Made by a program: the position numbers and the translations under genes
Origin: Patescibacteria group bacterium
GTDB taxonomy: Bacteria; Patescibacteriota; Patescibacteriia; XYB2-FULL-38-15
Length of the DNA: 64,000 nt
Assembly (NCBI GenBank): GCA_041737355.1
Contig: JBGSRW010000008.1
Location: forward strand, 24,466-88,465
Reading direction: 5' to 3'
Shown: positions 4,131-30,358 of the stretch, piece after piece
Position numbering within the stretch: position 1 is the first letter of the stretch
How the letters are laid out: the number at the start of each line of letters is the position of its first letter
Notes under the pieces: model-generated
What the model was told of the DNA's origin: nothing
The model's database searches: none
What the model saw: the letters and a program-made list of their open reading frames with translations, nothing else

Positions 4131-5384
4131 ATGGAGAACGGCAGCAAGGAGATTGTGGTTGGCAAGGAGCCGACGGCTACGGCCGAGGCGTTCCTCGAGC
4201 CGCCGAGCGAGGACGACGAGTGGTTGCTCCTGGATTTCAATCCGGCGGCGACCGAGTCCGCGCCGGCCGTGCCCGAGACGCCGAAGCCCAAGCCGCCGCG
4301 CGTCTGCGCGATCTGCCAGCACCCCTCCGGGAATTCGGTGGGCAAGATCAAGCGCGGGCGGATCGCCGAGGTCGAGCACGAAGGGATGAAGCTGCTCACG
4401 CTCGAACCAATCTGCGAACCGTGCGGCGAGAAGTTGCCGCCCGAGGAGCGGAAGAGGCTCTTCAAGGCGGGGTACCTCATCTCCCTGATCGGCGAGAAGA
4501 ACCGCGAGATGCGCGAGTTCGAGGCGGCCAAGGCCTACTGGGCTGCGGTCTTCGCCGGTACGGCAGAGCGGATGCCCGAGGCTCGCAAGACGCCCGAGGA
4601 GATGCTCTCCTGCGGGGTGCCCGGCTGCCCCCGCTGTCACGATCAGGTCGGCCACAAGGTCGGCCACTTCGTGGCGATGACGATCGGCGGCATGCCGACG
4701 CTTCTCGGGGTCTGCTCCTTCCAGGCCGCGGCCTTGGCACAGTGCGGGGTCGAAAAGAAGGGCATCGTCGTGACGACGAAGTTCTCCGTGGCCGCCCCGA
4801 TCGTCGAGGCGGAGAACGCCAGGCTCCAGGCCTTCGAGAAGGCCAAGAGTTTCTGGCTCGCCGTGGCCGAAGGCGAGGCGGCGGTCGAGGCGCGGGCCGA
4901 GAAGACCGAGCGCGGCGACATCTACCGCTGCGGCGTCCCCGGCTGCAAGTGCCGGGAGCACGGCGACCGGCCGGTCGACTACTTCGTGGTCTTGGACGGC
5001 CAGCCCGAGATGCCCATCGCGGGTGTCTGCCGATACCAGTATGCGGCGCTCCGGACCTCCGGGGTGAAGATCTTCGCCGCGAACAACAACGACGGGATGG
5101 GCCTCGCGCGGTGCGCCAAGCACCGCAACTGGCTCCTCGGCCAGGCCAAGAGGGCCATCCGCGACGTCCGGAGGCCGGACGGAATCGGCGGCGGTCTCTC
5201 CCGTTTCCGCTCGCCCGAAGAACAGGCGCGGATCCGCGAGGAGAAGCGCCGGACGTTCGAGGAGCGCGAGGCCAAGCGCCGCTCCCGGCAACTCGAGCGG
5301 GCCAAGGCCTCCTCCAGCAAGGCCGGCTGCGGCAAGAAGGCCAGCAGCAAGAAGGGCGGCAAGGGCGGCGGCAAGAAGCACTAG
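4131..5384 (+). CDS. Hypothetical high-GC Cys-rich protein with N-terminal zinc ribbon, two tandem CxxxxCxxC...C modules and a Lys/Arg-rich C-terminal tail
   Basis: RBS AAGGAGG at 4117-4123, 7 nt before the ATG. High GC with GC-rich third codon positions. Zinc ribbon CAICQHP...CEPCGEK. Duplicated module CGVPGCPRCHDQ...GVCSFQAAAL and CGVPGCKCREHG...GVCRYQYAAL. Tail KKASSKKGGKGGGKKH. Antisense and alternate-frame ORFs are Arg/Pro-rich artefacts. Confidence 0.6.
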   Translation: MENGSKEIVVGKEPTATAEAFLEPPSEDDEWLLLDFNPAATESAPAVPETPKPKPPRVCAICQHPSGNSVGKIKRGRIAEVEHEGMKLLTLEPICEPCGEKLPPEERKRLFKAGYLISLIGEKNREMREFEAAKAYWAAVFAGTAERMPEARKTPEEMLSCGVPGCPRCHDQVGHKVGHFVAMTIGGMPTLLGVCSFQAAALAQCGVEKKGIVVTTKFSVAAPIVEAENARLQAFEKAKSFWLAVAEGEAAVEARAEKTERGDIYRCGVPGCKCREHGDRPVDYFVVLDGQPEMPIAGVCRYQYAALRTSGVKIFAANNNDGMGLARCAKHRNWLLGQAKRAIRDVRRPDGIGGGLSRFRSPEEQARIREEKRRTFEEREAKRRSRQLERAKASSSKAGCGKKASSKKGGKGGGKKH

Positions 5385-13262: not shown

Positions 13263-13265
13263 TGT

Positions 13266-14999: not shown

Positions 15000-15023
15000 T
15001 TTCCGGAAATTGGCGAAATTTTT

Positions 15024-16109: not shown

Positions 16110-16111
16110 AC

Positions 16112-16121: not shown

Positions 16122-16188
16122 TTATAAATGTGGATAATTGAATATTTAAATCCTATGCTCGTGACTTAGAAGCTTAAAGCCGCGAGCC

Positions 16189-16368: not shown

Positions 16369-16648
16369 GCTCTATTATAATACTAATAGCGCTTATCCTT
16401 CATGCGCCGCCGGTACATTGGTTTCGGCTTGCGCCGCCTTAGCACCTGATTACTTGCCGGGCGTTTTGACCCTGAAAGATCCGGGTGGAGTTGCCGGTGC
16501 TTGCGCCGATCCGGCAGCAGCGAAATGTAACTACGCCTTTGGTACTGCCGCAGCGAACGAAGGCTATAGAATTACTTTCTGGCTTGAAGGAGCGACCGGA
16601 GATTTGGCTGCCGGAGCCCACAGAGTTACGGCTATGGGAATCCAGTAA
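16205..16648 (+). CDS. pilA: Type IV major pilin (prepilin, class III signal)
   Basis: MFKNKKGFTLIELLVVIAIIGLLSTLAVVALS is the canonical G|FTLIE prepilin cleavage and N-methylation motif. 147 aa. Confidence 0.85.
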   Translation: MFKNKKGFTLIELLVVIAIIGLLSTLAVVALSSARTKARDAKRTADMKQVQTAMELYYNTNSAYPSCAAGTLVSACAALAPDYLPGVLTLKDPGGVAGACADPAAAKCNYAFGTAAANEGYRITFWLEGATGDLAAGAHRVTAMGIQ

Positions 16649-16674
16649 ATTTTGTCTCGAAATTTCGAGAAAAA

Positions 16675-16700
16675 CTCCCCGCGAGGGGAGTTTTTGTTTT
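16675..16700 (+). terminator. Rho-independent terminator after pilin gene 1
   Basis: CTCCCCGCGAGGGGAG hairpin followed by TTTTTGTTTT. Preceded by the palindrome TCTCGAAATTTCGAGA (16655-16670). Confidence 0.7.
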
Positions 16701-16714
16701 GGGACATTTTGTAG

Positions 16715-16720
16715 TATAAT
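16715..16720 (+). promoter_or_regulatory. -10 element TATAAT upstream of pilin gene 2
   Basis: TTGTAGTATAAT about 35 nt upstream of ATG 16756. Duplicated RBS AAAGGAGGTGA. Confidence 0.35.
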
Positions 16721-16739
16721 TAATTTAATATACCAAAAA

Positions 16740-16919
16740 GAAAGGAGGTGAAAGAATGTTTAAAAATAAAAAAGGTTTCACTTTGATCGAATTGTTGGTG
16801 GTTATCGCCATCATCGGTCTTCTCTCGACTTTGGCGGTCGTTGCCTTGAGCAGCGCGAGAACCAAAGCCAGAGATTCAAAACGCGTGGCCGACATGAAGC
16901 AGGTTCAGACAGCCATGGA
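16740..16919 (+). repeat. 180-bp direct repeat copy 2 (5' part of pilin gene 2)
   Basis: See 16189-16368. Confidence 0.85.
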
Positions 16920-17217
16920 AATGGTTTTCAGCGAAGCCAACAGCTACGCCTTGGCTGGATGCACAACGGCCGGTAATAAGGTCAGCCTCTGCACCACGCC
17001 GCTCTCAACTTATTTGCCGAACGTCGCCAATCTTAAGGATCCGAAGGGGTTAAGCGCTTGCGCCGTAGCTTGTGATGGAACAATCACCGCGGCCTGCGAT
17101 TACTCGGTTAAAACCGTGCCGACTGCAAGTACTTACGAGTTTTGTTTCTATTTGGAAACAGCTACGGGCGATTTAGCGGCCGGAGCCCATAAAGTTACGC
17201 CAGCTGGGATTCAATAG
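16756..17217 (+). CDS. pilA: Type IV major pilin paralog 2
   Basis: N-terminal 50 aa identical to pilin 1. Divergent central and C-terminal domain with a conserved end ...TGDLAAGAHKVT. 153 aa. Confidence 0.85.
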   Translation: MFKNKKGFTLIELLVVIAIIGLLSTLAVVALSSARTKARDSKRVADMKQVQTAMEMVFSEANSYALAGCTTAGNKVSLCTTPLSTYLPNVANLKDPKGLSACAVACDGTITAACDYSVKTVPTASTYEFCFYLETATGDLAAGAHKVTPAGIQ

Positions 17218-17244
17218 CCGAATTTTTGATGCATCAAAACAAAA

Positions 17245-17275
17245 GCCCTTTTATCAGGGTTTTTGTTTTTTTTAT
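17245..17275 (+). terminator. Rho-independent terminator after pilin gene 2
   Basis: GCCCT-TTTATC-AGGGT stem extended by A/U pairs, then TTTTTGTTTTTTTT. Confidence 0.5.
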
Positions 17276-17283
17276 AAGGTTTT

Positions 17284-17294
17284 TGTGCTATAAT
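17284..17294 (+). promoter_or_regulatory. Extended -10 promoter TGTGCTATAAT upstream of pilD
   Basis: TGnTATAAT 145 nt upstream of pilD ATG 17439. Confidence 0.45.
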
Positions 17295-17305
17295 TTAATA
17301 ATATG

Positions 17306-17437
17306 CCCCGTTAGAAGTCTTTGACGGAAAAATTTTTTAATAAAATTTTTCCTTGTGGCAGAACGGGGATTATACACGAATTTTTTCTTTTTTAAAAGAC
17401 GCAAATAAACATTTAAAATTATAAACTTCTAACGGGG
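17306..17437 (+). promoter_or_regulatory. pilD 5' leader with three mutually exclusive pairing elements (candidate translational attenuator/riboregulator)
   Basis: CCCCGTTAGAAGT (17306-17318) is the perfect reverse complement of ACTTCTAACGGGG (17425-17437), which abuts the start codon and contains the only SD-like GGGG. A middle decoy AACGGGG sits at 17362-17368. The 5' element can pair with either downstream copy. Confidence 0.35.
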
Positions 17438-17438
17438 T

Positions 17439-18224
17439 ATGGCGCTAATTATCGTCTTTATTTTTGGCTTAGTCATCGGAAGTTTTTTGAATGTCGTAAT
17501 CTGGAGACTGCATACGGGGGAATCGGCTCTAAAAGGCCGCTCTTATTGTCCGAAATGCAAGCACCGCTTGGATTTTTTTGATTTATTTCCGGTCATGAGT
17601 TTTGTAATCCAGGGAGGAAAGTGCCGTTATTGCCGCGAGTCAATTTCCTGGCAATATCCGTTTGTTGAATTGGCTACGGCCGCGCTTTTTGTCATGGCTT
17701 ATGTAATTTCCGATTTTTCCGCCGAAGGAGGATTGGTCTTGGGTAGGCAACTTTTAATTCTGCTGAAGTATTGGTTTGTTGTCTCCGCGATGATTATAGT
17801 TTTTGTTTATGACGCTAAACATTATTTGATTTTGGACAAAGTAATCTATCCCGCGGCAGCCGTCGCGTTTTTTGCCAGTCCGCTTCTTTCGGGAGACGTT
17901 TGGTGGCGGGGAATTCCGGACGGTCTTTTAGCGGCGGCGATCGGCGGCGGATTTTTTCTTTTTCAATATGCCGTGTCAAAAGGAAAATGGATTGGCGGAG
18001 GGGACGTAAAATTGGGATTTTTGATGGGTTTATTTTTAGGTGTTAAGGGTTTGCTTGTGGCTTTCTTTTTTTCTTATTGCCTCGGGGCCGTCGTCGGGCT
18101 TGGTCTTGTCGCGGCCGGCAGAAAAAACATGAAAGGCCAGCTTCCTTTCGGGACTTTTTTGGCCGCCGGAACCCTTATCGCTTTATTTTGGGCCGAACCG
18201 ATCTTGAAATGGTATTTAAATTAA
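17439..18224 (+). CDS. pilD: Prepilin peptidase / N-methyltransferase PilD (A24 family)
   Basis: N-terminal tetracysteine CPKCKHRLDFFDLFPV...GKCRYCRESISWQYP, multiple TMs, 261 aa. Confidence 0.9.
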   Translation: MALIIVFIFGLVIGSFLNVVIWRLHTGESALKGRSYCPKCKHRLDFFDLFPVMSFVIQGGKCRYCRESISWQYPFVELATAALFVMAYVISDFSAEGGLVLGRQLLILLKYWFVVSAMIIVFVYDAKHYLILDKVIYPAAAVAFFASPLLSGDVWWRGIPDGLLAAAIGGGFFLFQYAVSKGKWIGGGDVKLGFLMGLFLGVKGLLVAFFFSYCLGAVVGLGLVAAGRKNMKGQLPFGTFLAAGTLIALFWAEPILKWYLN

Positions 18225-18225
18225 A

Positions 18226-18741
18226 ATGAAAAAAGGTTTTACAATAATAGAGCTCCTGGTTGCCCTGGGTGTTTTTGTTGTCGTGACGGCCATGGTCGTT
18301 GCAAATTTCCGGGCCGGCGGCCGGAGCGACGAACTCCGAATCGCCGCCGAGACACTTATTTCCAACCTGAGAAAAGCCCAGAATATGTCCTTAGCCGGCC
18401 AGCTCACGAACGGCGTCAGCCCGCCAGGCGGTTACGGAGTTTATTTCAAATTGTCCGATGCCGATCGATATATTATTTTTTCGGACCTTGACGGAGATTT
18501 GGGATATACCGCGGGCGAAGCTCTTTTAGACGGAACAATAATTTTGCCAAAAGATATCAGAATTTCAAATATCCAGCCGGCAGCCGTCTCAAGTGCAATT
18601 TTTAAACCGCCAAAACCGGTTATTTATATCAATGGGGGAATTTCCGAGGCGACTCTTTCAGTGACCTTACAGCATAATTTGAGTGGCAAGACGCGGACTG
18701 TCACGGTTAAGAGAATTTCGGGACAAATCGGAACCGAATAA
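18226..18741 (+). CDS. Minor pilin / pseudopilin (prepilin-type N-terminus)
   Basis: MKKGFTIIELLVALGVFVVVTAMVVANF is a class III signal. Confidence 0.7.
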   Translation: MKKGFTIIELLVALGVFVVVTAMVVANFRAGGRSDELRIAAETLISNLRKAQNMSLAGQLTNGVSPPGGYGVYFKLSDADRYIIFSDLDGDLGYTAGEALLDGTIILPKDIRISNIQPAAVSSAIFKPPKPVIYINGGISEATLSVTLQHNLSGKTRTVTVKRISGQIGTE

Positions 18742-18747
18742 TTTTTT

Positions 18748-19350
18748 ATGGATTTTAATTATAAAAATTTAAAGTCTGAGACGGGTCAAAGCTTGGTGGA
18801 AATGATTATTGCCATCGCGATTATTTTAACCGGCTTGATCGGCGCGATTGCCTTGACTATCTCAAATTTAAGCGGATCGGCGGAAGCCGGAACCATGGTT
18901 GTCGCGACAAATTTGGCAAAAGAGGGGATCGAGGTGGCAAGAAATATCAGGGACGCGAATTGGTTAAAAAATTTGGCATGGGACAACGGTTTGTCTTCGG
19001 GCGCGGATTACACGGCAATAGCGGTTTTCAATCCGGCGACAAAACAATGGGGCCTCGATTTTTTACCAAACAGTATTTCCGACGCGGCGGCGAAACTTTA
19101 TCTTTCGGCGGATAATTTATATCTTCAAAACTCAACTCCGCCGGTAGGAAATCAGACGATTTATTCCAGAATTTTGACGTTCGGCCAAATTTGTTTTAAT
19201 ACATCAACTAAAACTGAAACTGTAAGCGACAGTCCTTGTGGAGGGGGAGAAAATAAAATCGGTATAAGAATAAAGGCCGATGTGGCTTGGATTTTGAGCG
19301 GGAAGTCGAGGAGTCTGACGGTTGAAGATAAAATTTACAACTGGCGGTAA
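18748..19350 (+). CDS. Minor pilin (PilV-like, prepilin-type N-terminus)
   Basis: GQSLVEMIIAIAIILTGLIGAIAL is a prepilin cleavage/methylation domain. Confidence 0.65.
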   Translation: MDFNYKNLKSETGQSLVEMIIAIAIILTGLIGAIALTISNLSGSAEAGTMVVATNLAKEGIEVARNIRDANWLKNLAWDNGLSSGADYTAIAVFNPATKQWGLDFLPNSISDAAAKLYLSADNLYLQNSTPPVGNQTIYSRILTFGQICFNTSTKTETVSDSPCGGGENKIGIRIKADVAWILSGKSRSLTVEDKIYNWR

Positions 19351-19351
19351 T

Positions 19352-19924
19352 ATGAATAAAAAGGGATTTACCTTGGTAGAAATGATGGTAGTTCTGGCAA
19401 TTTTTTCGGTTGCCACGGTTGTGGTTGTCGATATTTTTATGATGGCGTCGCGCGCCGAACGCCGGACTTTGGCTATTCAAAAAATCCAGTCCGACGCGCG
19501 TTATTCGCTAGAAGCCATGGCGCGGGAAATCAGGATGGACATGATTGATTACGATTATTACAACGGAACAATAAATGAAGTGCCAAGCGGAACTTTGGCT
19601 TTGCGCGACCAGGACGACAACCAGATAATTTTCAAAAAAAGCAATGGGAATTGTCCGATCGGTACGACGAATTGCCTGGTTGTTTCTTTGGATGGTACAA
19701 ACTGGGAAAGCATCACTGCCCCGGGAATTGATGTGCTTGATCTAAAATTTTATATTGATCCGACGGTTGATCCATTTAAACCTAACGCCGGTTTTACTTA
19801 CGATTCGGATAATCATCCCAGAGTAACGATTGTTCTTGTGTCAAAAGGCGTCGGCGGGCGTCCGGACGAGCAGCAGACAGTATATTTGCAGACGACCGTT
19901 TCAAATAGAATTTATAGAAGATAA
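19352..19924 (+). CDS. Minor pilin (PilW-like, prepilin-type N-terminus)
   Basis: MNKKGFTLVEMMVVLAIFSVATVVVV. Start reassigned to ATG 19352, just after the upstream stop. Confidence 0.65.
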   Translation: MNKKGFTLVEMMVVLAIFSVATVVVVDIFMMASRAERRTLAIQKIQSDARYSLEAMAREIRMDMIDYDYYNGTINEVPSGTLALRDQDDNQIIFKKSNGNCPIGTTNCLVVSLDGTNWESITAPGIDVLDLKFYIDPTVDPFKPNAGFTYDSDNHPRVTIVLVSKGVGGRPDEQQTVYLQTTVSNRIYRR

Positions 19925-19930
19925 AAAGCA

Positions 19931-20791
19931 ATGAGAAAAAAAAGATTTAAAAAACAAACGGGCAACGTACTTCTTTTGTCTTTACTCGTCATGGCGGGGA
20001 TTATGACGGCCGGGCTTGGCATTGGTGCGATTATTATAAATGAAATAAGGCAGGCGCGGAATATTGATTTTTCGGCTCTGGCCTATTACGCCGCCGAGTC
20101 GGGAGTCGAACAGGCGCTATACAAACTTCGGAAAGAGGAAGCGCTCCTAAATTGTCCGGCCGGAGTTTGCGGTGGGAACGGTTTTTGCACTACGGGAAAC
20201 CAGGAGCCGTGCTTGAAGAATAGCGAAAATTTGAGTAATCAATCCTCTTGGACAAGAGCCGTAACCGATAAGGAATGGCAAATTTATGGTAAAATCAAAA
20301 AAGACGAAACGCTCCAGGTAGATCTTTACGATCCGGAAGGAACCTCGGCGGCCGGAGTTGAATCGGTCAAGATCCAGTGGACACCGCAATGCGTCCCGCC
20401 GGCCGTTTCAACGATCGAGATTTCCTACATTGCCTGGAATCCGGCAACCGGTTGGTCGCAAGATACGGAAAAGAAATTCAAATATTCCGCCTTGGCAAGC
20501 CCGGTGATTAATAACGGTTTCAGCAACGTTAAATCTTACCGGATGAGAATTAAATCGCTTTACTGCGATATCAGTAATTTGATAGTCACTGCCTGGGGAA
20601 ACGACAATGCCAACGTACCACAGGTACAGATTCCGGCGAGGATTGTTTTGAATTCAACCGGACAGTACAGCAATCTCCGCCAGGCGATTAAAATGACTAT
20701 GCCGCGGAAATCGCCGATGTCGGGATTGTACGACTATGTTTTATTCAGTGAGTGTTCTTTGGTTAAAGGCGAGGCGGCAACTTGTCCGTAA
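19931..20791 (+). CDS. PilX-like minor pilin / pilus-associated protein
   Basis: N-terminal hydrophobic segment QTGNVLLLSLLVMAGIMTAGLGIGAIIINEIRQAR resembles the PilX N-terminal domain. Cys-rich periplasmic part. 286 aa. Confidence 0.6.
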   Translation: MRKKRFKKQTGNVLLLSLLVMAGIMTAGLGIGAIIINEIRQARNIDFSALAYYAAESGVEQALYKLRKEEALLNCPAGVCGGNGFCTTGNQEPCLKNSENLSNQSSWTRAVTDKEWQIYGKIKKDETLQVDLYDPEGTSAAGVESVKIQWTPQCVPPAVSTIEISYIAWNPATGWSQDTEKKFKYSALASPVINNGFSNVKSYRMRIKSLYCDISNLIVTAWGNDNANVPQVQIPARIVLNSTGQYSNLRQAIKMTMPRKSPMSGLYDYVLFSECSLVKGEAATCP

Positions 20792-20796
20792 AAATT

Positions 20797-22872
20797 ATGA
20801 ACAAAGAAGAAGCTAAAAAAAGAATAGAAAAATTAAAAGCGGAAATAGATCACCACCGCTATCTTTATCATGTCCTGGACCGTCAGGAGATTTCCGACGC
20901 GGCGTTGGATTCCTTAAAGCACGAATTGTATAAACTGGAGCAGGAATTTCCCGAATTTATAACTTCCGATTCGCCGACCCAAAGAGTCGGAGGCGAACCA
21001 TTGCCGGAATTTAAAAAATGGCAGCATGGAACGCCGATGCTTTCGATCGAGGATGTTTTTAGCGAAGAAGAATTGCTCGACTGGAAAAATCGGATTCAAA
21101 AATTAACACCGAACGAAGAATTCAATTATTACGCGGAAATAAAAATGGACGGCCTGGCCATGTCTTTGGTTTATGAAAAAGGTTACTTGAAAGTCGGTGC
21201 GACGCGGGGAGACGGGAAGACGGGGGAGGATGTGACTAATAATTTGAAAACAATTGAGGCGATTCCCTTGCAGCTTAGAATTCCTGAAGAAAAGGAAATC
21301 GACGAATTTATAAGAAAATTTGGCAAAGACGGTCTGGACGAGAAAAAATTACGCCAGTCTCTTAAAAAATTGCCGGAAAGAGTCGAAGCGCGCGGCGAGG
21401 CTTTCATGACTAAAAAAGTTTTTGACGGATTGAACAAGGCGCAGGAGGCATCCGGTCTTCCGGTTTTTGCCAATCCCCGTAACGCGGCGGCTGGCAGCAT
21501 AAGGCAGCTCGATTCAAAAATTACCGCCAGCCGGAAACTCGATTTTTACGGCTATGCGCTTTTGACTGATTTTGGTCAGACGACTCATGAGCAAATCCAC
21601 GAAATTTTGAAGTTAATTGGCATTAAAGTTAATCCCCTTAACCGATCTTGCAAAAACCTTGATGAAGTCCTGGCTTATCATGAAGAAATCGGCAAAAAGC
21701 GGCCGCATCTCCCGTATTGGACCGACGGGGTGGTTGTGAATATCAATAAAATTAAAACTTTGGAAAAACTGGGCGTAGTCGGCAAAACGCCGCGCGGCAT
21801 GATCGCTTTTAAGTTTCCCCCGGAGCAGGCGACAACAATTGTCCGCGAAGTGGTTTGGCAGGTCGGGCGGACCGGAGCCGTGACGCCGGTTGCGGTTATG
21901 GATCCGGTTTTTATTGCCGGAACGACCGTAACACATTCGACGCTACATAACATGGATGAAATTGAACGGCTCGGCTTGAAAGTAGGGGACACGGTGATTA
22001 TTGAAAAGGCCGGCGATGTGATTCCAAAAGTGGTAAAAGTTCTGCCCAATCTCAGGACCGGAAAGGAAAAGAAAATCAGCCCGCCTGCGGCTTGTCCGCG
22101 TTGCGAAACAAAACTGGTCCATGAAGACGGCGAGGTGGCGATTTATTGTCCTAACAAAAAATGTTTTGCCCGTTCAATGCGGCAGATCAGATATTTCGTT
22201 TCCAAAAAAGCTTTTAACATAGATGGACTGGGTAATAAAATTGTTGAGCGGTTTTTGGACGAAGGATTGATCCGCGACGCGGCCGACATTTTTGAACTGG
22301 AAGCTGGCGATATTTTGCCGCTGGAGAGGTTCGCGGAAAAGTCGGCGGCTAATTTAATCGAAGCGATTGAAAAAAGCAAAAAAATTCCCCTGAGCCGTTT
22401 TATTTTTTCTTTGGGGATACGCCATGTCGGCGAAGAAACCGCGGTTGATCTGGCCAATTATTTCGGCAGTTTGGAAAAGCTCGAAAACGCAAATCTTGAA
22501 ACGCTCCAGGCCGTGCCAAATATCGGCGGAGTAATGGCCGAAAGTATTTTGGAATGGTTCTGCGACAAAGGTAATGAAGATTTTTTAGAGAGATTGCTAA
22601 AACATGTTTCTATTATCAAGCCCGTCGCTACCAAAAAAATTTGGCAGGGCTTGAAATTTGTTCTGACCGGAAGTCTGGAGAGCCTGACCCGCGACCAGGC
22701 CAAAGAAAAAATAAAGATGATGGGCGGCGATGTGGTAAGCTCGGTATCGCGCGAAACCGATTATGTCGTAGCCGGCAGCGATCCGGGGTCAAAATACGAT
22801 TACGCGCAGCGGCTCGGAGTGAAAATAATTGATGAAAAAGAATTTCTAAAAATGCTGGAAAAGGCTGGTTAA
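20797..22872 (+). CDS. ligA: NAD-dependent DNA ligase LigA
   Basis: Adenylation motif KMDGLA, OB fold, Zn finger CPRCETKLVHEDGEVAIYCPN, HhH and BRCT domains. ORF-track start 20782 (alternative start codon) replaced by ATG 20797. Confidence 0.9.
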   Translation: MNKEEAKKRIEKLKAEIDHHRYLYHVLDRQEISDAALDSLKHELYKLEQEFPEFITSDSPTQRVGGEPLPEFKKWQHGTPMLSIEDVFSEEELLDWKNRIQKLTPNEEFNYYAEIKMDGLAMSLVYEKGYLKVGATRGDGKTGEDVTNNLKTIEAIPLQLRIPEEKEIDEFIRKFGKDGLDEKKLRQSLKKLPERVEARGEAFMTKKVFDGLNKAQEASGLPVFANPRNAAAGSIRQLDSKITASRKLDFYGYALLTDFGQTTHEQIHEILKLIGIKVNPLNRSCKNLDEVLAYHEEIGKKRPHLPYWTDGVVVNINKIKTLEKLGVVGKTPRGMIAFKFPPEQATTIVREVVWQVGRTGAVTPVAVMDPVFIAGTTVTHSTLHNMDEIERLGLKVGDTVIIEKAGDVIPKVVKVLPNLRTGKEKKISPPAACPRCETKLVHEDGEVAIYCPNKKCFARSMRQIRYFVSKKAFNIDGLGNKIVERFLDEGLIRDAADIFELEAGDILPLERFAEKSAANLIEAIEKSKKIPLSRFIFSLGIRHVGEETAVDLANYFGSLEKLENANLETLQAVPNIGGVMAESILEWFCDKGNEDFLERLLKHVSIIKPVATKKIWQGLKFVLTGSLESLTRDQAKEKIKMMGGDVVSSVSRETDYVVAGSDPGSKYDYAQRLGVKIIDEKEFLKMLEKAG

Positions 22873-24599: not shown

Positions 24600-25187
24600 A
24601 TGCTTAAACCAGCAAGTTTTAAAAAAGGAAAAACAACCAGCCAATATACGCCAAAAAAATCAAAGGCAGACAAGATAACGGCCGGACATACGCCGCGCGT
24701 TGCCCCGAGCTGGTATGAGGCAGAAGTGAAAAAGAAAAAAACGATCCGGCAATGTTCGCGCTGCGGGGCGGTTTATCTTGATAATCATTGGCACACCATT
24801 CCCGATTTTGCGAAAATTTACGCAATGTCTTTGCTCAAAAAAGAAATCATTAAGGAACTATGTGCCGAGTGCAAGTGGGTTGTCGGAGGCAAGAACAAAA
24901 CCGGCTGGGAAGGGGAGTTGATTTTGGAAAATTTGGTTTCCGAAGAAAAAAGTGAAATTTTAAATCTGGCCAGAAATGTTGGGATCCGCGCTACTTTGCG
25001 CGATCCGGAAGACCAAATTATAAAAATTGAAGATACGGGTGATAAAGTCAGGATTACCACCACGGAGAATCAACTGGCAGTCTCGATCGGCAAGCAAATT
25101 GCGAGCGCTTTCAAGGGTGGGAAGTTGGAAATTATTTGGTCCGACGAAGACGCGCCGGCAAGAGTCAGATGGATGAGAAAAAAATAA
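24600..25187 (+). CDS. Hypothetical zinc-ribbon protein (CxxC...CxxC), possibly NMD3-like fold
   Basis: CSRCGAVYLDNHWH...CAECKWVVGG followed by a beta-rich C-terminal domain. No confident family assignment. Confidence 0.5.
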   Translation: MLKPASFKKGKTTSQYTPKKSKADKITAGHTPRVAPSWYEAEVKKKKTIRQCSRCGAVYLDNHWHTIPDFAKIYAMSLLKKEIIKELCAECKWVVGGKNKTGWEGELILENLVSEEKSEILNLARNVGIRATLRDPEDQIIKIEDTGDKVRITTTENQLAVSIGKQIASAFKGGKLEIIWSDEDAPARVRWMRKK

Positions 25188-26808: not shown

Positions 26809-26823
26809 GCGTGAGGCCGTATA

Positions 26824-26851
26824 AGCGGATTTGAGGAATCCGCTTTTTTTA
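26824..26851 (+). terminator. Rho-independent terminator after the lipid kinase gene
   Basis: AGCGGATT-TGAGG-AATCCGCT 8-bp stem followed by TTTTTTT. Confidence 0.7.
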
Positions 26852-26869: not shown

Positions 26870-26880
26870 TGTGCTATAAT
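26870..26880 (+). promoter_or_regulatory. Extended -10 promoter TGTGCTATAAT upstream of the two-gene operon 26919-30329
   Basis: TGnTATAAT about 40 nt upstream of ATG 26919. Confidence 0.45.
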
Positions 26881-26918
26881 ATAAATGGATATCTTTATGG
26901 TGATATTATCCGATTTTT

Positions 26919-28322
26919 ATGATCACTATTGATTTTAGTTATTTTGAAACGCTTGGAGCCATGTCGCCCCTCGCGATAATGTGGAGGCTTTTTGCTGACG
27001 GAGGATGGGTAATTGTTTTGTGGGTTTTTGTAGGGGGGTTTTGGGCTATTTTTGTAAACTGGCGGCAGTCTCTTTACGGGGCTAAACGCCGTTTTGTTTA
27101 TTTAGCGGTTGATATTCCCAAAACGTCGGAGGACGAGCCCAGTCAATCTCCTCGTGCTGTAGAAAATATTTTTTCTCATCTAGACGGGGCACATGGCACG
27201 GATACTCTCTGGGAGAAGTACTGGGAGGGAAAGACTCAGGATATTTTTAGTTTGGAAATAGTCAGCATTGAAGGCTACATCCAATTTGTTATCCGCACCC
27301 GCGATAAATATCGCGATTTGGTTGAAGCGGCAATCTATGCGCAATATCCAAACGCGGAAATTACCGAGGTCGTTGACTACACCCAATTCGCGCCTAAAAA
27401 ATTTCCCGATCCGGAATGGGAACTTTTCGGTACCGAGTGGATCAACGTAAAACCCGAGGCTTATCCGCTCCGCACTTACCATGACTTTGAAGATCCGGCG
27501 ACCAAGGAATTCAAAGATCCTCTTGCCGCCATGCTTGAAACCATGTCAAAGATGGGCAAGGGTGAACAAATTTGGTTTCAGATAATTATTACGCCGATCA
27601 GTCAGAAAGAATGGAGTCAAAAGGGAGAAAAATTAGTAAAAAAATTAATCGGCTCCAAAGTCGAATCCAAAAAAACCTGGATGAACACGATTGTTGATTT
27701 GCCGGTTAAAGTTGCCGACACGGCCTTGAACCAGATTTTAAGCAGCGAGGAGGGGGTCAAGAAAAAAGAAGATAAAAAGGAAGCATCTTTGATGCAATAT
27801 CTTTCACCGGGTGATAAAATTATGGTGGAGGAAATTGAAAATAAGATTTCCAAGATTGGTTTTAAGACCAAGATAAGAATGATCTATCTTGCGAAGAAGG
27901 AAATTTTTAAAAAAACACGCGCCGCCCATCCGATGATTGGCGCAATGAAACAGCTCAACACTCTCGACGGCCAAAGCTTGAAACCGGAGTATAAGAAAGT
28001 CGGGACATCTGCTCATTATATCTTGGTTAATAAACGGGTTCAGTGGAAGCAAAACAAAATTTTAAGGGCTTATAAGGGGCGGAGCAACTGGCAGGGTCTG
28101 GGTAAGGGGTTTGTTTTGAATATCGAAGAGCTGGCGACCTTGTGGCACTTCCCGGCGGCCTGGATCAAGGCGCCGTCGGTTAAAACGGTTGAGAGTAAAC
28201 GCGGCGTGCCGCCGGTCAATCTTCCGCTTGAACAACCTAGTTTTATGAAACCGATGACTGAGGTAGAACAGGAGCCCAAGGGAAAACCGGAAGAAGTACC
28301 GCCAGAGCTGCCGGTTGTTTAA
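26919..28322 (+). CDS. Hypothetical membrane-anchored protein, partner of the coupling-protein-like ATPase
   Basis: N-terminal TM hairpin (LAIMWRLFADGGWVIVLWVFVGGFWAIFVNW), about 400-aa Lys/Glu-rich soluble domain, no recognisable motif. 10-nt gap to the next gene suggests an operon. Confidence 0.6.
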   Translation: MITIDFSYFETLGAMSPLAIMWRLFADGGWVIVLWVFVGGFWAIFVNWRQSLYGAKRRFVYLAVDIPKTSEDEPSQSPRAVENIFSHLDGAHGTDTLWEKYWEGKTQDIFSLEIVSIEGYIQFVIRTRDKYRDLVEAAIYAQYPNAEITEVVDYTQFAPKKFPDPEWELFGTEWINVKPEAYPLRTYHDFEDPATKEFKDPLAAMLETMSKMGKGEQIWFQIIITPISQKEWSQKGEKLVKKLIGSKVESKKTWMNTIVDLPVKVADTALNQILSSEEGVKKKEDKKEASLMQYLSPGDKIMVEEIENKISKIGFKTKIRMIYLAKKEIFKKTRAAHPMIGAMKQLNTLDGQSLKPEYKKVGTSAHYILVNKRVQWKQNKILRAYKGRSNWQGLGKGFVLNIEELATLWHFPAAWIKAPSVKTVESKRGVPPVNLPLEQPSFMKPMTEVEQEPKGKPEEVPPELPVV

Positions 28323-28331
28323 AAATACAAT

Positions 28332-30329
28332 ATGAGTCATGAGGAAATAGCACTTTTTGCCGAAACAAATTTCCGCGGTGAGCGGAAGCGTTTCGGTATA
28401 AAGACCGACGACCGCCGCCGGCACGTTTATATTATTGGTAAAACCGGTATGGGAAAATCAACCATGCTGGAGAATTTTATTATTTCCGATATCAGAGCGG
28501 GGCACGGCGTCGGCGTGGTTGATCCGCACGGCGATTTGGCTGAGAAAATTTTGGATTTTATTCCTCCGAACAGGGTGAACGACGTGGTTTATTTTAATCC
28601 GGCAGATCTCGATTGGCCGATTGCTTTTAATATTTTGGAGTCAATCGACCCGAGATATAAGCATCTTGTCGCCTCCGGCATGATGGGAGTCTTCAAAAAA
28701 ATCTGGCCCGATGTCTGGTCGGCCAGAATGGAATATATTTTGAATAATACGATTCTCGCGCTTTTGGATTGTCCGGGGTCAACAATGCTCGGGATTAACA
28801 GAATGTTGGCTGACAAAGATTACCGGAAGAAAGTCATTCTTAAATTAAAAGATCCGGTGGTCAAAGCTTTTTGGGTTGATGAGTTTGCCAAATACAACGA
28901 GCGGTTTGCTACCGAAGCCATCGCTCCAATCCAAAATAAGGTTGGCCAATTCCTCTCGGCATCCATTGTCAGAAATATTGTCGGTCAGGTGAAGTCAACG
29001 ATTGACATGCGCGAGATCATGGATAACCAGAAAATTTTTATAATGAATCTTGCGAAAGGAAGAATTGGTGAAGATGCGAGCGCTCTGTTGGGTAATATGC
29101 TTGTTACAAGACTGCAGCTTGCGGCCATGGCACGGGTCGATGTTCCGGAACCGAAGAGAAAAGATTTCTATCTCTACGTTGATGAATTTCAAAATTTTGC
29201 CACTATAAGTTTTGCCAATATTTTATCTGAGGCGAGAAAATACCGCCTGAATCTTATTTTAGCCCATCAATATATTGAACAGCTGGCTGAAGAAGTCGCC
29301 GCTGCCGTTTTCGGAAACGTCGGCACGATTGCTTCTTTTAGGGTCGGGGCGGCCGACGCTGAAGTTTTGGAAAAAGAATTCTCCCCGACTTTCACGGCCG
29401 AAGACCTGGTAAACCTCACAAAATATGATATGTATTTAAAATTGATGATTGACGGCGTGTCTTCATCGCCGTTCTCTGCTATAGGCTTGCCTCCGGTAAT
29501 CGGTTCGACCGGCAACAGGGATAAAGTGATCAGGGTTTCCCGGGAGAGATACGCCAAACCCAAAGAAATTGTTGAAGAAAAAATTATCCGCTGGAGCGGG
29601 GTGCAGATTGCCGGGGAAGAAGAAAAATCAGACGAAGAGATTGAAGCGGAAATTAAAAAATCCATTGGAGAACAAAAAAAGACGGCAGGGGAATTAATGG
29701 AAAAAAGAACAGAAAAAGGAAGTCATGAAGTGTCCGGAGCCGAACTGGAGGCGCGGGCGATTACCGCCCGTGAGGCGATTCTTGAACGGAATAAAGTCCA
29801 AGCTGTTGATTTTCTAAGCCATTTGGAAGAAAAAAAAGAACCGGCCCCTCCGCAAATAATAGTTGAGCCTGCCCCCGTATTTATCCGTCCAACCAATAAA
29901 GTTGATATTAAGCTCGAGCTTAAAAATGAGGTGACTCCGCCAAAAGAGGAACCAAAAAGAGAACCGGCGCCAATCGTGGAAAAAGAAGTGAAGTCATCGC
30001 CGGTCCAAGTGCTTCCGAAAAAAATAGAAGAACCAAAAACTGCCGTCGTCGCACCGGCGGTTATTCCACAATCAAAAACAACGCAAGCGCCGGCCGCCGG
30101 GCAAAATAAGAAAACCCGCGAAGAACTTTTTCCTTACGAAATTAAATGTTCCGCCTGCGGCAAGCCGGACAGGGTTTCCTTCAACCCCGATCCCAACAGA
30201 CCGGTCTACTGTAAGGATTGTCTGAAAATAGAAAGAGAAAAAGAGAGGCTGGCCAAGAAGAATAAAAACGGACCGGGCGGACCGCCAAAAAAGACGGAAG
30301 AAAAATCAGTGGATAATATAAAAGTATAA
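28332..30329 (+). CDS. Type IV secretion coupling-protein-like ATPase (VirD4/TraD/TrwB family) lacking an N-terminal TM domain, with a C-terminal zinc ribbon
   Basis: HVYIIGKTGMGKSTMLENFI...GVGVVDPHGD (Walker A plus TrwB-type context). Walker B YLYVDEFQNF about 240 aa downstream, consistent with an all-alpha insertion. RKYRLNLILAHQYIEQL motif. C-terminal Glu/Lys-rich region, then CSACGKPDRVSFNPDPNRPVYCKDCL. Confidence 0.6.
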   Translation: MSHEEIALFAETNFRGERKRFGIKTDDRRRHVYIIGKTGMGKSTMLENFIISDIRAGHGVGVVDPHGDLAEKILDFIPPNRVNDVVYFNPADLDWPIAFNILESIDPRYKHLVASGMMGVFKKIWPDVWSARMEYILNNTILALLDCPGSTMLGINRMLADKDYRKKVILKLKDPVVKAFWVDEFAKYNERFATEAIAPIQNKVGQFLSASIVRNIVGQVKSTIDMREIMDNQKIFIMNLAKGRIGEDASALLGNMLVTRLQLAAMARVDVPEPKRKDFYLYVDEFQNFATISFANILSEARKYRLNLILAHQYIEQLAEEVAAAVFGNVGTIASFRVGAADAEVLEKEFSPTFTAEDLVNLTKYDMYLKLMIDGVSSSPFSAIGLPPVIGSTGNRDKVIRVSRERYAKPKEIVEEKIIRWSGVQIAGEEEKSDEEIEAEIKKSIGEQKKTAGELMEKRTEKGSHEVSGAELEARAITAREAILERNKVQAVDFLSHLEEKKEPAPPQIIVEPAPVFIRPTNKVDIKLELKNEVTPPKEEPKREPAPIVEKEVKSSPVQVLPKKIEEPKTAVVAPAVIPQSKTTQAPAAGQNKKTREELFPYEIKCSACGKPDRVSFNPDPNRPVYCKDCLKIEREKERLAKKNKNGPGGPPKKTEEKSVDNIKV

Positions 30330-30330
30330 A

Positions 30331-30358
30331 AACAAGCCCTTGAAGGGCTTGTTTTTAT
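30331..30358 (+). terminator. Rho-independent terminator
   Basis: AACAAGCCC-TTGAA-GGGCTTGTT hairpin followed by TTT. Confidence 0.7.

What the first reader, a model, noticed from the sequence alone, without database searches (positions are those of the whole stretch)
26870..30358. Stand-alone operon: membrane-anchored unknown protein plus TM-less VirD4/TrwB-like coupling ATPase with a C-terminal zinc ribbon
The ATPase has the TrwB-type Walker A context (IIGKTGMGKST...VVDPHGD), an insertion of about 240 aa before Walker B (DEFQNF) and the RKYR...AHQ motif. It lacks the N-terminal TM anchor that coupling proteins normally carry. Instead a separate 467-aa membrane-anchored protein is encoded immediately upstream (10-nt gap). 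The ATPase ends with a Glu/Lys-rich linker and CSACGKPDRVSFNPDPNRPVYCKDCL. No VirB4, VirB6 or relaxase is in the window, so this may be a split, minimal DNA/protein translocation motor, possibly cooperating with the nearby type IV pilus DNA-uptake machinery.
Basis: partly seen in the sequence, partly recalled or inferred. Interest (0 to 1): 0.6.

Follow-up and report, generated by a model that had tools for sequence, protein, structure and literature searches.

The report
Split type IV coupling ATPase of Patescibacteria
Two adjacent genes encode the membrane-anchored front half and the ATP-driven motor half of a conjugation-type "coupling protein" that other organisms make as one chain; this split form is a highly conserved chromosomal gene pair of the ultrasmall Patescibacteria, and what it moves is still unknown.

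Summary
Two co-directional ORFs, 26919-28322 (467 aa) and 28332-30329 (665 aa), lie 9 nt apart between two terminator-like hairpins.

- **Gene B** is a TM-less TrwB/VirD4-type ATPase. It passes the Pfam cut-offs for PF10412, PF02534 and PF12696. Its best structural match is TrwB (TM 0.62-0.65). It ends in a disordered linker and a CxxC-x17-CxxC zinc ribbon.
- **Gene A** is Pfam DUF8128 (PF26449), with one N-terminal TM helix and a cytoplasmic domain. Foldseek matches that domain only to the VirB4 ATPase TrwK of plasmid R388; no sequence test supports the link.
- **New here:** DUF8128 is the N-terminal domain of a class of long coupling proteins.
  - In 111 of 120 homologues of Bacillus phage G gp156, DUF8128 and the ATPase are fused in that order. 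These homologues include many Patescibacteria proteins.
  - In an Embleya plasmid and in Bacillus phages, the long protein sits beside VirB4-like, PrgI and Replic_Relax genes.
- **Conservation:** the split pair is adjacent in 68 of 78 assessable species genomes. The ATPase (68% identity) is more conserved than AlaRS (55%).
- **Linkage:** the pair is not linked to type IV pili (1-2 of 80 loci) or to VirB4.

It is a split, exapted coupling protein. Its substrate and partner channel are unknown. I rate it a new variant of a known kind, of moderate interest.

The parts
26823..26845 (+). Terminator-like hairpin plus T-run that closes the preceding gene (DAGK-like ORF ending at 26808). It marks the 5' boundary of the two-gene unit.
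   Evidence: 10-pair stem, T-run; sequence.
26872..26880 (+). Extended -10-like element TGCTATAAT, 39 nt upstream of the gene A start codon. A possible promoter.
   Evidence: Read directly. The consensus scan did not list it (no good -35), so this is only a lead.
26919..28322 (+). Gene A: DUF8128 (PF26449) protein, 467 aa. It has an N-terminal TM helix, a cytoplasmic alpha/beta domain and a disordered tail that ends in a conserved PPxxLP motif.
   Evidence: ORF. P0001, 100% identical, carries precomputed PF26449, which is named DUF8128. AF2 model: pLDDT 77.6, pTM 0.73. Foldseek: top 12 PDB hits are all TrwK/VirB4. Conserved motifs.
27000..27056 (+). Single predicted TM helix of gene A (residues about 28-46, GGWVIVLWVFVGGFWAIFV). 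It is followed by basic residues (R49, K55, R56, R57), so the large domain is inferred to be cytoplasmic.
   Evidence: Hydropathy. The GGW motif is conserved. Topology follows from the positive-inside rule and is an inference.
28332..29597 (+). Gene B, ATPase module (residues 1-422): TrwB/VirD4-type nucleotide-binding domain with an all-alpha domain. K42, D284/E285, R302/K303 and Q313 are invariant.
   Evidence: Pfam; PDB sequence hits; AF2 model; Foldseek TrwB E 1e-12, TMt 0.62-0.65; invariant columns.
29598..30134 (+). Gene B, Glu/Lys/Pro-rich linker (residues about 423-601). It is low-confidence or disordered and varies in length and sequence between species.
   Evidence: pLDDT mostly below 60. 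The alignment is mostly gaps or variable here.
30135..30227 (+). Gene B, C-terminal CxxC-x17-CxxC zinc ribbon (residues 602-632).
   Evidence: PF23477 zf_Tbcl_2 at E 1.4e-10; TIGR04272 at E 4.9e-10; pLDDT about 85. C606, C609 and C627 are at least 90% conserved. Zinc binding by this domain type was shown in M. mazei small proteins (PMC12704099).
30326..30358 (.). Terminator-like 15-pair hairpin that overlaps the gene B stop codon. It marks the 3' boundary; the next gene (QueH) starts at 30377.
   Evidence: QueH identified.

Best explanation
The locus encodes a type IV coupling protein (T4CP) split into two polypeptides.

**Components**
- Gene A (DUF8128) is the N-terminal module. It has one TM helix that tethers it to the cytoplasmic membrane and a roughly 400-aa cytoplasmic domain. 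The predicted fold of that domain resembles the VirB4 ATPase TrwK, presumably its N-terminal half.
- Gene B is the motor, a TrwB/VirD4-type ATPase with an intact catalytic set. A long flexible linker carries a zinc ribbon.

**Shown here**
- The two proteins are homologous, in the same order, to the two halves of single-chain 'long' T4CPs of 725-995 aa.
- In an Embleya (actinomycete) plasmid and in Bacillus phages, homologous long proteins sit in conjugation-type clusters.
- The split pair is a chromosomal, vertically inherited and very strongly conserved pair of Patescibacteria, unlinked to T4SS or pilus genes.

**Inferred**
- Gene A docks the gene B ring at the membrane one-to-one, as the fused proteins do in cis.
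- The zinc ribbon on its tether captures a substrate or partner, possibly a nucleic acid.
- ATP hydrolysis hands the substrate to a separate membrane channel. Six single TM helices are unlikely to form one.
- The most likely partner is the chromosomal VirB4-type T4SS that most Patescibacteria encode elsewhere. That system lacks a recognisable coupling protein in its own cluster, and because relaxases are rare it has probably been re-used for something other than conjugation.

**Confidence by layer**
- Molecular identity as a split long T4CP: about 0.85.
- Working with the Patescibacteria T4SS: about 0.45.
- Nature and direction of the substrate: unknown.
For: **Identity of gene B**
- Pfam PF10412, PF12696 and PF02534 all exceed their curated cut-offs.
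- TrwB and DotL are the only significant solved relatives by sequence.
- Foldseek ranks TrwB best (E 1e-12, about 415 aligned columns, TMt 0.62-0.65), ahead of HerA, Cag-beta and DotL.

**Identity of gene A**
- Precomputed PF26449 = DUF8128.

**Fusion evidence**
- phrog_5156 (824 positions) matches gene A residues 105-332 at profile positions 74-294 (E 5e-17). It matches gene B residues 26-436 at positions 408-821 (E 1e-61).
- hhalign of the DUF8128 profile against phage G gp156 gives probability 95.7%, E 9e-9. gp156 itself carries PF26449.
- 111 of 120 gp156 homologues contain both profiles co-linearly. The checked Patescibacteria fused proteins (for example P0416, P0420, P0426, P0447) have N-terminal TM helices.
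- Two fused proteins, P0416 and P0420 (the latter from Berkelbacteria), are 57-61% identical to gene B and 31-32% to gene A.

**Conjugation context of distant long relatives**
- Embleya plasmid: PrgI, VirB4-like, 812-aa T4CP, Replic_Relax, NlpC/P60. Its N-terminal link to DUF8128 is weak (hhalign E 0.0019).
- Phage G: gp155 (VirB4-like) next to gp156.
- CP-51: gp91 next to a Replic_Relax protein. Its N-terminal half gave no significant DUF8128 match.

**Co-conservation**
- DUF8128 lies directly upstream on the same strand in 68 of 80 species-level loci. Two more loci lack upstream DNA.
- The unlinked cases are two lineage-specific clades nested among the linked ones.

**Core-gene behaviour**
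- Against the same 11 genomes the median identity is ATPase 68%, AlaRS 55%, MnmA 45%, DUF8128 40%.
- Neighbours are housekeeping genes.
- DUF8128 was not found in viral contigs.

**Literature**
- 5,713 VirD4-type T4CP homologues were found in 2,918 of 3,035 Patescibacteria genomes. Only 148 lie near virB4, and relaxases are rare. The authors say exaptation cannot be excluded (PMC12102498).
- The essential Saccharibacteria T4SS cluster lacks a recognisable coupling protein (PMC10633639).
Against: - No T4SS component was found in the 64-kb window or in the flanks of 80 related loci. The flank check was phmmer-level only.
- T4CP homologues are reported in more genomes (96%) than VirB4 (80%). The t4cp homologue of S. 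epibionticum was not essential although the T4SS was. Both facts allow a T4SS-independent role.
  - My own inference softens the first point. Two copies per genome and about 80% per-gene detection would give 96% against 80% even if both were universal.
  - I did not test whether that S. epibionticum gene belongs to this subfamily.
- Physical contact between A and B is inferred from fusions and gene order. It was not modelled.
- The VirB4-like fold of DUF8128 rests on Foldseek alone (E 3e-5, but TM only about 0.33). Every sequence profile test against TrwK, TrsE, TrsD and two other VirB4-like proteins was negative.
- Nucleic-acid binding by the zinc ribbon is an assumption. Only zinc binding has been shown for the domain type.
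Confidence: 0.6

Rival explanations
1. An autonomous nucleic-acid uptake motor. The membrane-tethered ATPase pulls DNA or RNA into the cell through ComEC or another importer, downstream of the type IV pilus.
For: - A complete T4P cluster (PilM, N, O, B, C, D and pilins, 10243-19924) lies about 7 kb upstream in this window, flanked by RecJ, RNase H and LigA.
- The motor carries a zinc ribbon on a flexible tether.
- Patescibacteria cannot make nucleotides. At least one is reported to feed on host RNA by an unresolved route (bioRxiv 10.64898/2026.06.21.733656).
Against: - Linkage to T4P is not conserved. PilB, PilC and PilD occur in 2 of 80 related loci, PilM in 1, PilN and PilO in none.
- A comEC mutant of S. 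epibionticum is viable, and the essentiality of T4P and T4SS is not explained by ComEC (review PMC12857230).
- No known DNA-uptake system uses a VirD4-type ATPase (my own knowledge).
- No ComEC was seen next to the pair in any locus, though I made no specific search for it.
Confidence: 0.12
2. A housekeeping DNA pump unrelated to secretion. It would be an FtsK/SpoIIIE-like chromosome or nucleoid translocase at the membrane or septum of these very small cells.
For: - Conservation is extreme: the ATPase is 68% identical where AlaRS is 55%.
- The genomic context is always chromosomal and housekeeping: MnmA, AlaS, SecDF, DnaX, GyrBA.
- T4CPs and FtsK belong to the same ATPase superfamily, and HerA ranks second in the fold search.
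Against: - The FtsK_SpoIIIE Pfam match covers only the P-loop and is below cut-off (E 0.015, 15.2 bits against 24).
- There is no FtsK gamma domain.
- All non-Patescibacteria long relatives whose context I examined sit in conjugation-type clusters with a VirB4-like ATPase or a relaxase-like protein.
- I did not test whether these genomes also have FtsK.
Confidence: 0.1
3. Part of an anti-phage defence or mobile-element system, HerA-like or MADS-like.
For: - PADLOC mad8 matches the ATPase at E 2.9e-17, and HerA models match weakly.
- HerA defence complexes appear among the fold hits.
- Homologues occur in Bacillus phages and on plasmids.
Against: - Near-universal, single-locus, vertically inherited distribution with housekeeping synteny, and conservation above that of a tRNA synthetase, is the opposite of defence-island behaviour.
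- Gene A has no PADLOC hit, and no effector such as a nuclease or SIR2 protein lies adjacent.
- DUF8128 is absent from IMG/VR viral contigs at this similarity level.
Confidence: 0.03

Closest known systems
TrwB (plasmid R388) and VirD4-family type IV coupling proteins
   Same: - Same ATPase fold including the all-alpha domain: Foldseek E 1e-12, about 415 aligned columns, TMt 0.62-0.65.
- Walker A and B, the RK(Y/A)x arginine region and the glutamine align.
- Pfam PF10412, PF02534 and PF12696 are above their cut-offs.
   Different: - Only 15-18% identity.
- No N-terminal TM domain in the ATPase chain. The anchor is a separate 467-aa DUF8128 protein with one TM helix and a large cytoplasmic domain that TrwB lacks.
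- C-terminal linker plus zinc ribbon.
- No relaxase or T4SS genes nearby.
- Chromosomal core gene rather than a plasmid gene.
Long single-chain DUF8128-T4CP proteins
   Same: - Members examined:
  - Bacillus phage G gp156.
  - Fused Patescibacteria proteins such as P0420 and P0426.
  - More tentatively, the 812-aa T4CP of the Embleya plasmid NZ_CP108778.
- Both halves are homologous and co-linear with gene A followed by gene B.
- The checked Patescibacteria fused forms also start with a TM helix.
   Different: - One polypeptide instead of two.
- No zinc ribbon: 1 of 120 has a CxxC...CxxC match, and that protein is the unfused one.
- The actinomycete and phage members sit next to VirB4-like, PrgI and Replic_Relax genes.
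- They are far less conserved.
VirB4 (TrwK of R388)
   Same: - The top 12 Foldseek PDB hits of the DUF8128 model are all TrwK chains (E 3e-5 to 2e-3, probability 0.99-1.00).
- The overall plan is the same: a non-catalytic N-terminal domain followed by a TrwB-like ATPase of about 820 aa in total.
   Different: - No sequence-profile similarity was detected.
- TM-score is only about 0.33.
- The ATPase half is closer to TrwB than to the VirB4 C-terminal domain: VirB4 is absent from the top 50 fold hits and is the outgroup in the tree.
TM-less coupling proteins of Gram-positive plasmids that rely on a separate membrane protein
   Same: From memory, not checked here: TraJ (Orf10) of pIP501 with TraI. 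The logic is the same: a soluble VirD4-type ATPase thought to be brought to the membrane by a neighbouring membrane protein.
   Different: Those are plasmid conjugation genes inside a T4SS operon with a relaxase. No relationship between their membrane partner and DUF8128 was tested.
Orphan VirD4-type T4CP homologues of Patescibacteria counted by Quinonero-Coronel et al. 2025 (PMC12102498)
   Same: - This is almost certainly the same gene set: 5,713 homologues in 2,918 of 3,035 genomes, 148 of them near virB4.
- About two per genome fits the split or orthologous-fused form plus a second fused paralogue seen here.
   Different: - That paper reports counts and notes that exaptation cannot be excluded.
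- The passages I read (the T4CP text and sections 7 and 12) do not mention the DUF8128 partner, the gene split, the zinc ribbon or the paralogue structure.
- No paper in the searched library mentions DUF8128 or PF26449.

Membership tests
VirD4/TrwB type IV coupling protein (T4CP) | P-loop nucleotide-binding domain with the TrwB-type Walker A, Walker B, arginine and glutamine motifs; family HMMs above their curated cut-offs | tested here: met
   PF10412 scores 44.4 bits (cut-off 20.5), PF12696 27.5 (22) and PF02534 23.1 (20.1). Motifs align to TrwB and are invariant across 30 homologues.
VirD4/TrwB type IV coupling protein (T4CP) | All-alpha domain inserted in the nucleotide-binding domain; overall TrwB fold | tested here: met
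   The AF2 model has an all-helical block at about residues 107-217. Foldseek aligns TrwBdeltaN70 over about 415 columns, TMt 0.62-0.65, rmsd about 4.8 A.
VirD4/TrwB type IV coupling protein (T4CP) | N-terminal transmembrane domain in the same polypeptide | tested here: not met
   The ATPase has no hydrophobic window above 1.6. The anchor is supplied by gene A in trans (TM at residues 28-46) and in cis in the fused homologues checked.
VirD4/TrwB type IV coupling protein (T4CP) | Genetic association with a T4SS (VirB4 and others) and a relaxase | tested here: not met
   None is present in the window or in the flanks of 80 related loci at phmmer level. The feature is met only in distant long relatives.
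VirD4/TrwB type IV coupling protein (T4CP) | Hexameric, substrate-stimulated ATPase that couples a substrate to a secretion channel | not testable with these tools
   Needs biochemistry or genetics.
DUF8128 (PF26449) | Match to the family HMM | tested here: met
   P0001, 100% identical to gene A, carries precomputed PF26449.1, and the name is given. The local Pfam copy lacks the model: 0 hits.
VirB4 (N-terminal domain) | Fold similarity of gene A to VirB4 | tested here: inconclusive
VirB4 (N-terminal domain) | Sequence-profile similarity to VirB4 or TrsD | tested here: not met
   hhalign against TrwK, TrsE, TrsD, phage G gp155 and the Embleya VirB4-like protein gave probability below 1% in every case. 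No CagE_TrbE_VirB Pfam hit appeared in 32 members.
HerA/FtsK translocases | Family HMMs and best structural match | tested here: not met
   DUF87 barely passes (24.1 against 23.2), while FtsK_SpoIIIE is below cut-off (15.2 against 24) and covers only the P-loop. The PDB profile search gives no HerA or FtsK hit at E<=0.1. HerA ranks below TrwB structurally (TMt 0.50-0.52 against 0.62-0.65).
CxxC-x17-CxxC zinc ribbon (PF23477 / TIGR04272) | Match above cut-off, with the four cysteines present | tested here: met
   PF23477 scores 41.2 bits (cut-off 27) and TIGR04272 39 (36). C606, C609 and C627 are at least 90% conserved, and C630 is present in the window sequence. Zinc binding itself was not tested for this protein.

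The most novel reading that the evidence does not exclude
The split DUF8128/T4CP motor with its zinc-ribbon tether may be the missing energy-coupling and substrate-selecting component of the essential, relaxase-less T4SS of Patescibacteria. It might run that machine to acquire host nucleic acid (RNA or DNA) or other host macromolecules rather than to export DNA. That would be a coupling protein re-used for parasitic feeding. It would explain why a conjugation-type ATPase is conserved more tightly than a tRNA synthetase across a whole bacterial radiation.
Probability: 0.12. Interest if true: 0.85.

Novelty: new variant of a known kind. Interest (0 to 1): 0.55.

Why it matters
Patescibacteria make up a large share of bacterial diversity and live as epibionts that must take nucleotides, lipids and amino acids from hosts. 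Their T4SS is essential for growth on the host, yet it has no known substrate, almost no relaxases and no coupling protein in its cluster.

This work shows three things.
- The orphan VirD4-like gene of these genomes is half of a conserved two-gene unit.
- Its partner, DUF8128, is the N-terminal domain of a previously undescribed class of long coupling proteins, shared with an actinomycete plasmid and Bacillus phages.
- The motor is among the most conserved proteins of the lineage.

That gives experimenters a concrete, small target: two genes, one zinc ribbon and a second paralogue to delete together. With it they can ask what the T4SS moves and in which direction. It also assigns a function class to a Pfam DUF with more than 3,000 50%-identity clusters. 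Finally, it points to phage-borne T4SS-like modules that have not been explained.

Tried and rejected
- **Linkage to the type IV pilus cluster.** Rejected. The T4P genes of the window recur near the pair in only 0-2 of 80 loci.
- **The unlinked ATPases as a separate paralogue family.** Rejected. They form two lineage-specific clades nested among linked orthologues.
- **DUF8128 as the 'TrsD' VirB4-N-terminal-like protein of PMC12102498.**
  - hhalign against pGO1 TrsD was negative.
  - Most TrsD homologues are reported near virB4, while T4CPs are not.
  - They are therefore probably different proteins.
- **Sequence-level homology of DUF8128 to VirB4.** Five hhalign tests and a Pfam scan of 32 members were negative. 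The VirB4 likeness is kept only as a fold-level lead.
- **Mobile-element or defence origin.**
  - No DUF8128 in viral contigs.
  - PADLOC hits only the generic ATPase.
  - Conservation and synteny argue against it.
- **Source record.** The exact-sequence look-up of the window's own contig failed, so the assembly was not identified. The nearest named relatives are Patescibacteria, Uhrbacteria and Magasanikbacteria MAGs.
- **RNA families.** Rfam found nothing in the window.
- **Fusions among close DUF8128 relatives.** None of the top 150 representatives exceeds 700 aa. Fusions were found only through PHROGs and phage G gp156.

Full report
**1. What is in the sequence**

Two co-directional ORFs occupy 26919-28322 (gene A, 467 aa) and 28332-30329 (gene B, 665 aa). 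Nine nucleotides separate them. A hairpin plus T-run at 26823-26845 follows the preceding gene, and a 15-pair hairpin at 30326-30358 overlaps the stop codon of gene B. The two genes therefore look like a self-contained transcription unit. An extended -10-like TGCTATAAT sits at 26872-26880. The consensus promoter scan did not score it.

Gene B has no hydrophobic segment. Gene A has exactly one, at residues about 28-46, followed by basic residues. By the positive-inside rule this places its large domain in the cytoplasm, which is an inference.

**2. Gene B is a TrwB/VirD4-type ATPase**

- Pfam TrwB_AAD_bind (44.4 bits against a cut-off of 20.5), TraG-D_C and T4SS-DNA_transf all pass their curated cut-offs. 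FtsK_SpoIIIE does not, and DUF87 passes only marginally.
- By sequence, alone or as a 30-member profile, the only significant solved relatives are the coupling proteins TrwB and DotL.
- An AlphaFold model (pLDDT 74 overall, 80-94 in the ATPase part) matches TrwB best. The match has E 1e-12, about 415 aligned columns, TM 0.62-0.65 on the TrwB length and rmsd about 4.8 A. HerA, Cag-beta and DotL follow, and VirB4 is not in the top 50.
- The roughly 240 residues between Walker A and Walker B are the normal TrwB all-alpha domain, not an insertion.
- K42, D284/E285, R302/K303 and Q313 are invariant in 30 homologues, so the enzyme is presumably active.
- After residue about 422 comes a low-confidence, variable Glu/Lys/Pro-rich linker. 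It is followed by a CxxC-x17-CxxC zinc ribbon (PF23477, TIGR04272). Zinc binding has been shown experimentally for this domain type in Methanosarcina small proteins, but no function is known (PMC12704099).

**3. Gene A is DUF8128, and DUF8128 is the N-terminal domain of a class of long coupling proteins**

The local Pfam copy gives no hit. The database entry identical to gene A carries PF26449, named DUF8128. No paper in the searched library mentions that name or accession.

The family has 3,161 representatives at 50% clustering. Its members share:
- a GGW-containing TM helix;
- the motifs AIYAQYPxAEI, GEQxWxQI and NxEELAxxxHFP;
- two PPxxLP motifs, one at the extreme C-terminus.

The decisive result came from PHROGs. 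A single 824-position family, phrog_5156, matches gene A (residues 105-332 to profile positions 74-294, E 5e-17). It also matches gene B (residues 26-436 to positions 408-821, E 1e-61). Further evidence followed.
- A member of this kind, Bacillus phage G gp156 (825 aa), matches the ATPase at 29% identity (E 2e-32). It matches the DUF8128 profile at hhalign probability 95.7% (E 9e-9).
- gp156 itself is annotated with PF26449.
- Of 120 homologues of gp156, 111 contain the DUF8128 profile followed directly by the ATPase profile in one chain of 725-995 aa.
- Many of these homologues are from Patescibacteria (Berkelbacteria, Falkowbacteria, Gottesmanbacteria and a MAG labelled Saccharibacteria). 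The checked ones start with a TM helix, like gene A.
- The zinc ribbon is found in only one of the 120, and that one is the unfused protein.

Gene order in the window (A then B) therefore equals domain order in the fused proteins. This is a classical Rosetta-stone argument that A and B act as one unit.

**4. Where the long relatives live**

- On an Embleya (Streptomycetaceae) plasmid, the 812-aa homologue lies in the series PrgI (VirB3-like), VirB4-like ATPase, long T4CP, Replic_Relax protein, NlpC/P60 hydrolase. This is a monoderm conjugation-type cluster. Its N-terminal half aligns only weakly to DUF8128 (hhalign E 0.0019, probability 14%).
- In phage G, gp156 follows a VirB4-like ATPase, gp155.
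- In phage CP-51, the 911-aa gp91 precedes a Replic_Relax 'replication initiation by nicking' protein. Its ATPase half is homologous, but its N-terminal half gave no significant DUF8128 match.
- Plasmid relatives of the ATPase occur in Streptomyces, Bacillus, haloarchaea and Sulfolobus.

A simple neighbour-joining tree (indicative only) places the split ATPases as a tight, short-branched clade inside the fused DUF8128-T4CPs.
- Their nearest relatives are fused proteins including Berkelbacteria and Gottesmanbacteria members (53-61% identity).
- Next comes a second fused Patescibacteria clade (43-45%).
- Then come the Sulfitobacter, Embleya and phage proteins, then TrwB and TrsK.
- The VirB4 C-terminal domains are the outgroup.

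The split, zinc-ribbon form is thus probably derived from a fused ancestor. One Berkelbacteria contig carries both fused paralogues in tandem with a small 173-aa gene between them. That fits the roughly two T4CP homologues per genome reported in the literature.

**5. Fold of DUF8128**

The AlphaFold model (pLDDT 77.6, pTM 0.73) gives as its top 12 PDB matches only chains of TrwK, the VirB4 ATPase of R388 (E 3e-5 to 2e-3, probability 0.99-1.00). DUF8128 has no P-loop, so the match is presumably to the VirB4 N-terminal domain. The tool gave no coordinates, so this is not confirmed.

**6. Conservation and context of the split pair**

A scan of one genome per species found at least 600 matches, of which 80 loci were kept. 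The named ones span Magasanik-, Uhr-, Kerfeld-, Buchanan-, Doudna-, Falkow-, Moranii-, Portnoy-, Nealson- and Liptonbacteria. Several MAG titles such as 'uncultured Gammaproteobacteria' are evidently placeholder names.
- DUF8128 lies directly upstream on the same strand in 68 loci. Two more loci lack upstream DNA, giving 68 of 78 assessable.
- The ten exceptions form two lineage-specific clades nested among linked orthologues, which indicates rearrangement rather than a separate family.
- Against the same 11 genomes the median identity of the ATPase domain is 68%. It is 55% for AlaRS, 45% for MnmA and 40% for DUF8128.
- Neighbours are housekeeping genes:
  - MnmA in 19 of 80 and AlaS in 17 of 80 downstream, as in the window.
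  - SecDF in 38 upstream.
  - A Sigma70_r4 + HARE-HTH protein directly upstream of DUF8128 in 44.
- DUF8128 was not found in IMG/VR viral contigs.
- The window's type IV pilus cluster (10243-19924) is not a conserved neighbour: 0-2 of 80 loci.
- No VirB4, relaxase or other T4SS gene was found in the window or in the flanks.

**7. Relation to the literature**

- Quinonero-Coronel et al. 2025 found VirB4 in 2,417 of 3,035 Patescibacteria genomes and 5,713 VirD4-type T4CP homologues in 2,918. Only 148 lie near virB4, and only 109 relaxases were found. They note that the S. epibionticum t4cp was not essential and that exaptation cannot be excluded.
- Wang et al. 2023 state that the essential Saccharibacteria T4SS cluster lacks recognisable coupling and relaxase proteins.
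- My own inference: one VirB4 and two T4CP copies per genome, with about 80% detection per gene in draft MAGs, would give about 80% and about 96% of genomes. The different prevalences therefore do not show independence. Paralogue redundancy could also hide essentiality.
- In what I read of these papers, none describes the DUF8128 partner, the split or the zinc ribbon.

**8. Most likely mechanism**

Shown: this is a split long T4CP homologue, membrane-anchored through gene A, with an intact ATPase and a tethered zinc ribbon. It is a chromosomal core gene pair.

Inferred:
- A recruits a ring of B to the membrane one-to-one.
- The tethered zinc ribbon captures a substrate or partner.
- ATP hydrolysis delivers that substrate to a separate channel, most plausibly the Patescibacteria T4SS encoded elsewhere.

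The substrate and its direction are unknown.

Rivals:
- a nucleic-acid uptake motor working with T4P and ComEC (linkage not conserved; comEC dispensable);
- an FtsK-like housekeeping DNA pump (no family-specific signal);
- a defence system (contradicted by the distribution).

**9. Verdict**

- The 'split coupling protein' reading is supported and made precise.
- The suggested pilus cooperation is not supported.
- The protein families are already in databases, and the orphan T4CPs have been counted.
- New here are the DUF8128 = T4CP N-terminal-domain link, the fission and zinc-ribbon variant, its exceptional conservation and the phage and plasmid relatives.
- I rate it a new variant of a known kind, of moderate interest.

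Noticed in passing
window 4100-6150: A GC-rich island (60-71% GC against about 45% elsewhere), with long overlapping ORFs on both strands. The most gene-like is 4131..5384 + (417 aa). It has three repeats of a Cys-rich motif (CGVPGC...GVC..Q.AAL) and a Lys/Arg-rich tail. It has no Pfam hit and no Rfam hit. It could be foreign DNA, an assembly chimera or an unusual gene.
   Followed up: partly
L020:5189-6481 and 43 other related loci (directly upstream of DUF8128): A protein of about 370-430 aa with Sigma70_r4 and HARE-HTH domains lies immediately upstream of DUF8128, on the same strand, in 44 of 80 related loci. At that position the window has a DAGK-like gene instead. It may be a third functional partner or merely syntenic.
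   Followed up: partly
L093:2432-8348 (Berkelbacteria contig); also L090:9519-12490 and L091:9651-12838: In L093 two fused DUF8128-T4CP paralogues (829 aa and 937 aa) lie in tandem with a 173-aa gene of no known family between them. Elsewhere the fused paralogues are likewise preceded by small unknown genes of 159 aa and 114 aa. This may point to a small conserved accessory subunit.
   Followed up: no
L086 (Bacillus phage G gp155-gp156) and L087 (phage CP-51 gp90-gp91); SPO1-like phages: Large Bacillus phages carry a VirB4-like ATPase and/or a Replic_Relax nicking protein next to a long T4CP-like protein. In phage G this protein (gp156) carries DUF8128. The result is a conjugation-like module inside virulent or jumbo phage genomes, annotated misleadingly as 'MsbA-like'. 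Its role in the phage is unknown.
   Followed up: partly
window 6490-22872: A complete type IV pilus cluster: PilM 10243, PilN 11436, PilO 12420, PilB 13266, PilC 15024, pilins at 16205, 16756, 18226 and 19322, and PilD 17439. It is flanked by DNA-processing genes: RecJ 6490, RNase H 8227, an unknown 525-aa ORF at 8643 and LigA 20782. That arrangement would suit a DNA-uptake locus. It is not a conserved neighbour of the studied pair.
   Followed up: partly
window 28221-28319 (gene A residues 435-467) and alignment A2: DUF8128 proteins of the split type end in a variable acidic stretch followed by a near-invariant PPxNLP(I/V/F) motif. This echoes an internal PPxxLP motif about 30 residues earlier. 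It is a candidate short docking peptide. The corresponding position in fused proteins is the junction with the ATPase.
   Followed up: no
L008:10090-10461 and similar loci: In the lineage where the ATPase is not next to DUF8128 (HIT, ATPase, MnmA context), a CxxC-x17-CxxC zinc ribbon is encoded as a separate small ORF downstream of the ATPase. The ribbon may therefore also work in trans.
   Followed up: no
L005, L006, L011, L014, L017 and other loci (record titles): Many MAG records that carry this Patescibacteria-type gene pair are titled 'uncultured Gammaproteobacteria', 'Bdellovibrionales', 'Planctomycetota' or 'Saccharibacteria'. In the ATPase tree they group with named Patescibacteria lineages, so the titles look like placeholders or mislabels.
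   Followed up: no
window 24600-25187: A 195-aa ORF between GatA and the DAGK-like gene contains CSRCG...CAECK cysteine pairs and gives a weak NMD3-like Pfam hint (E 0.0095, below cut-off). It may be a small zinc-ribbon protein of unknown role.
   Followed up: no
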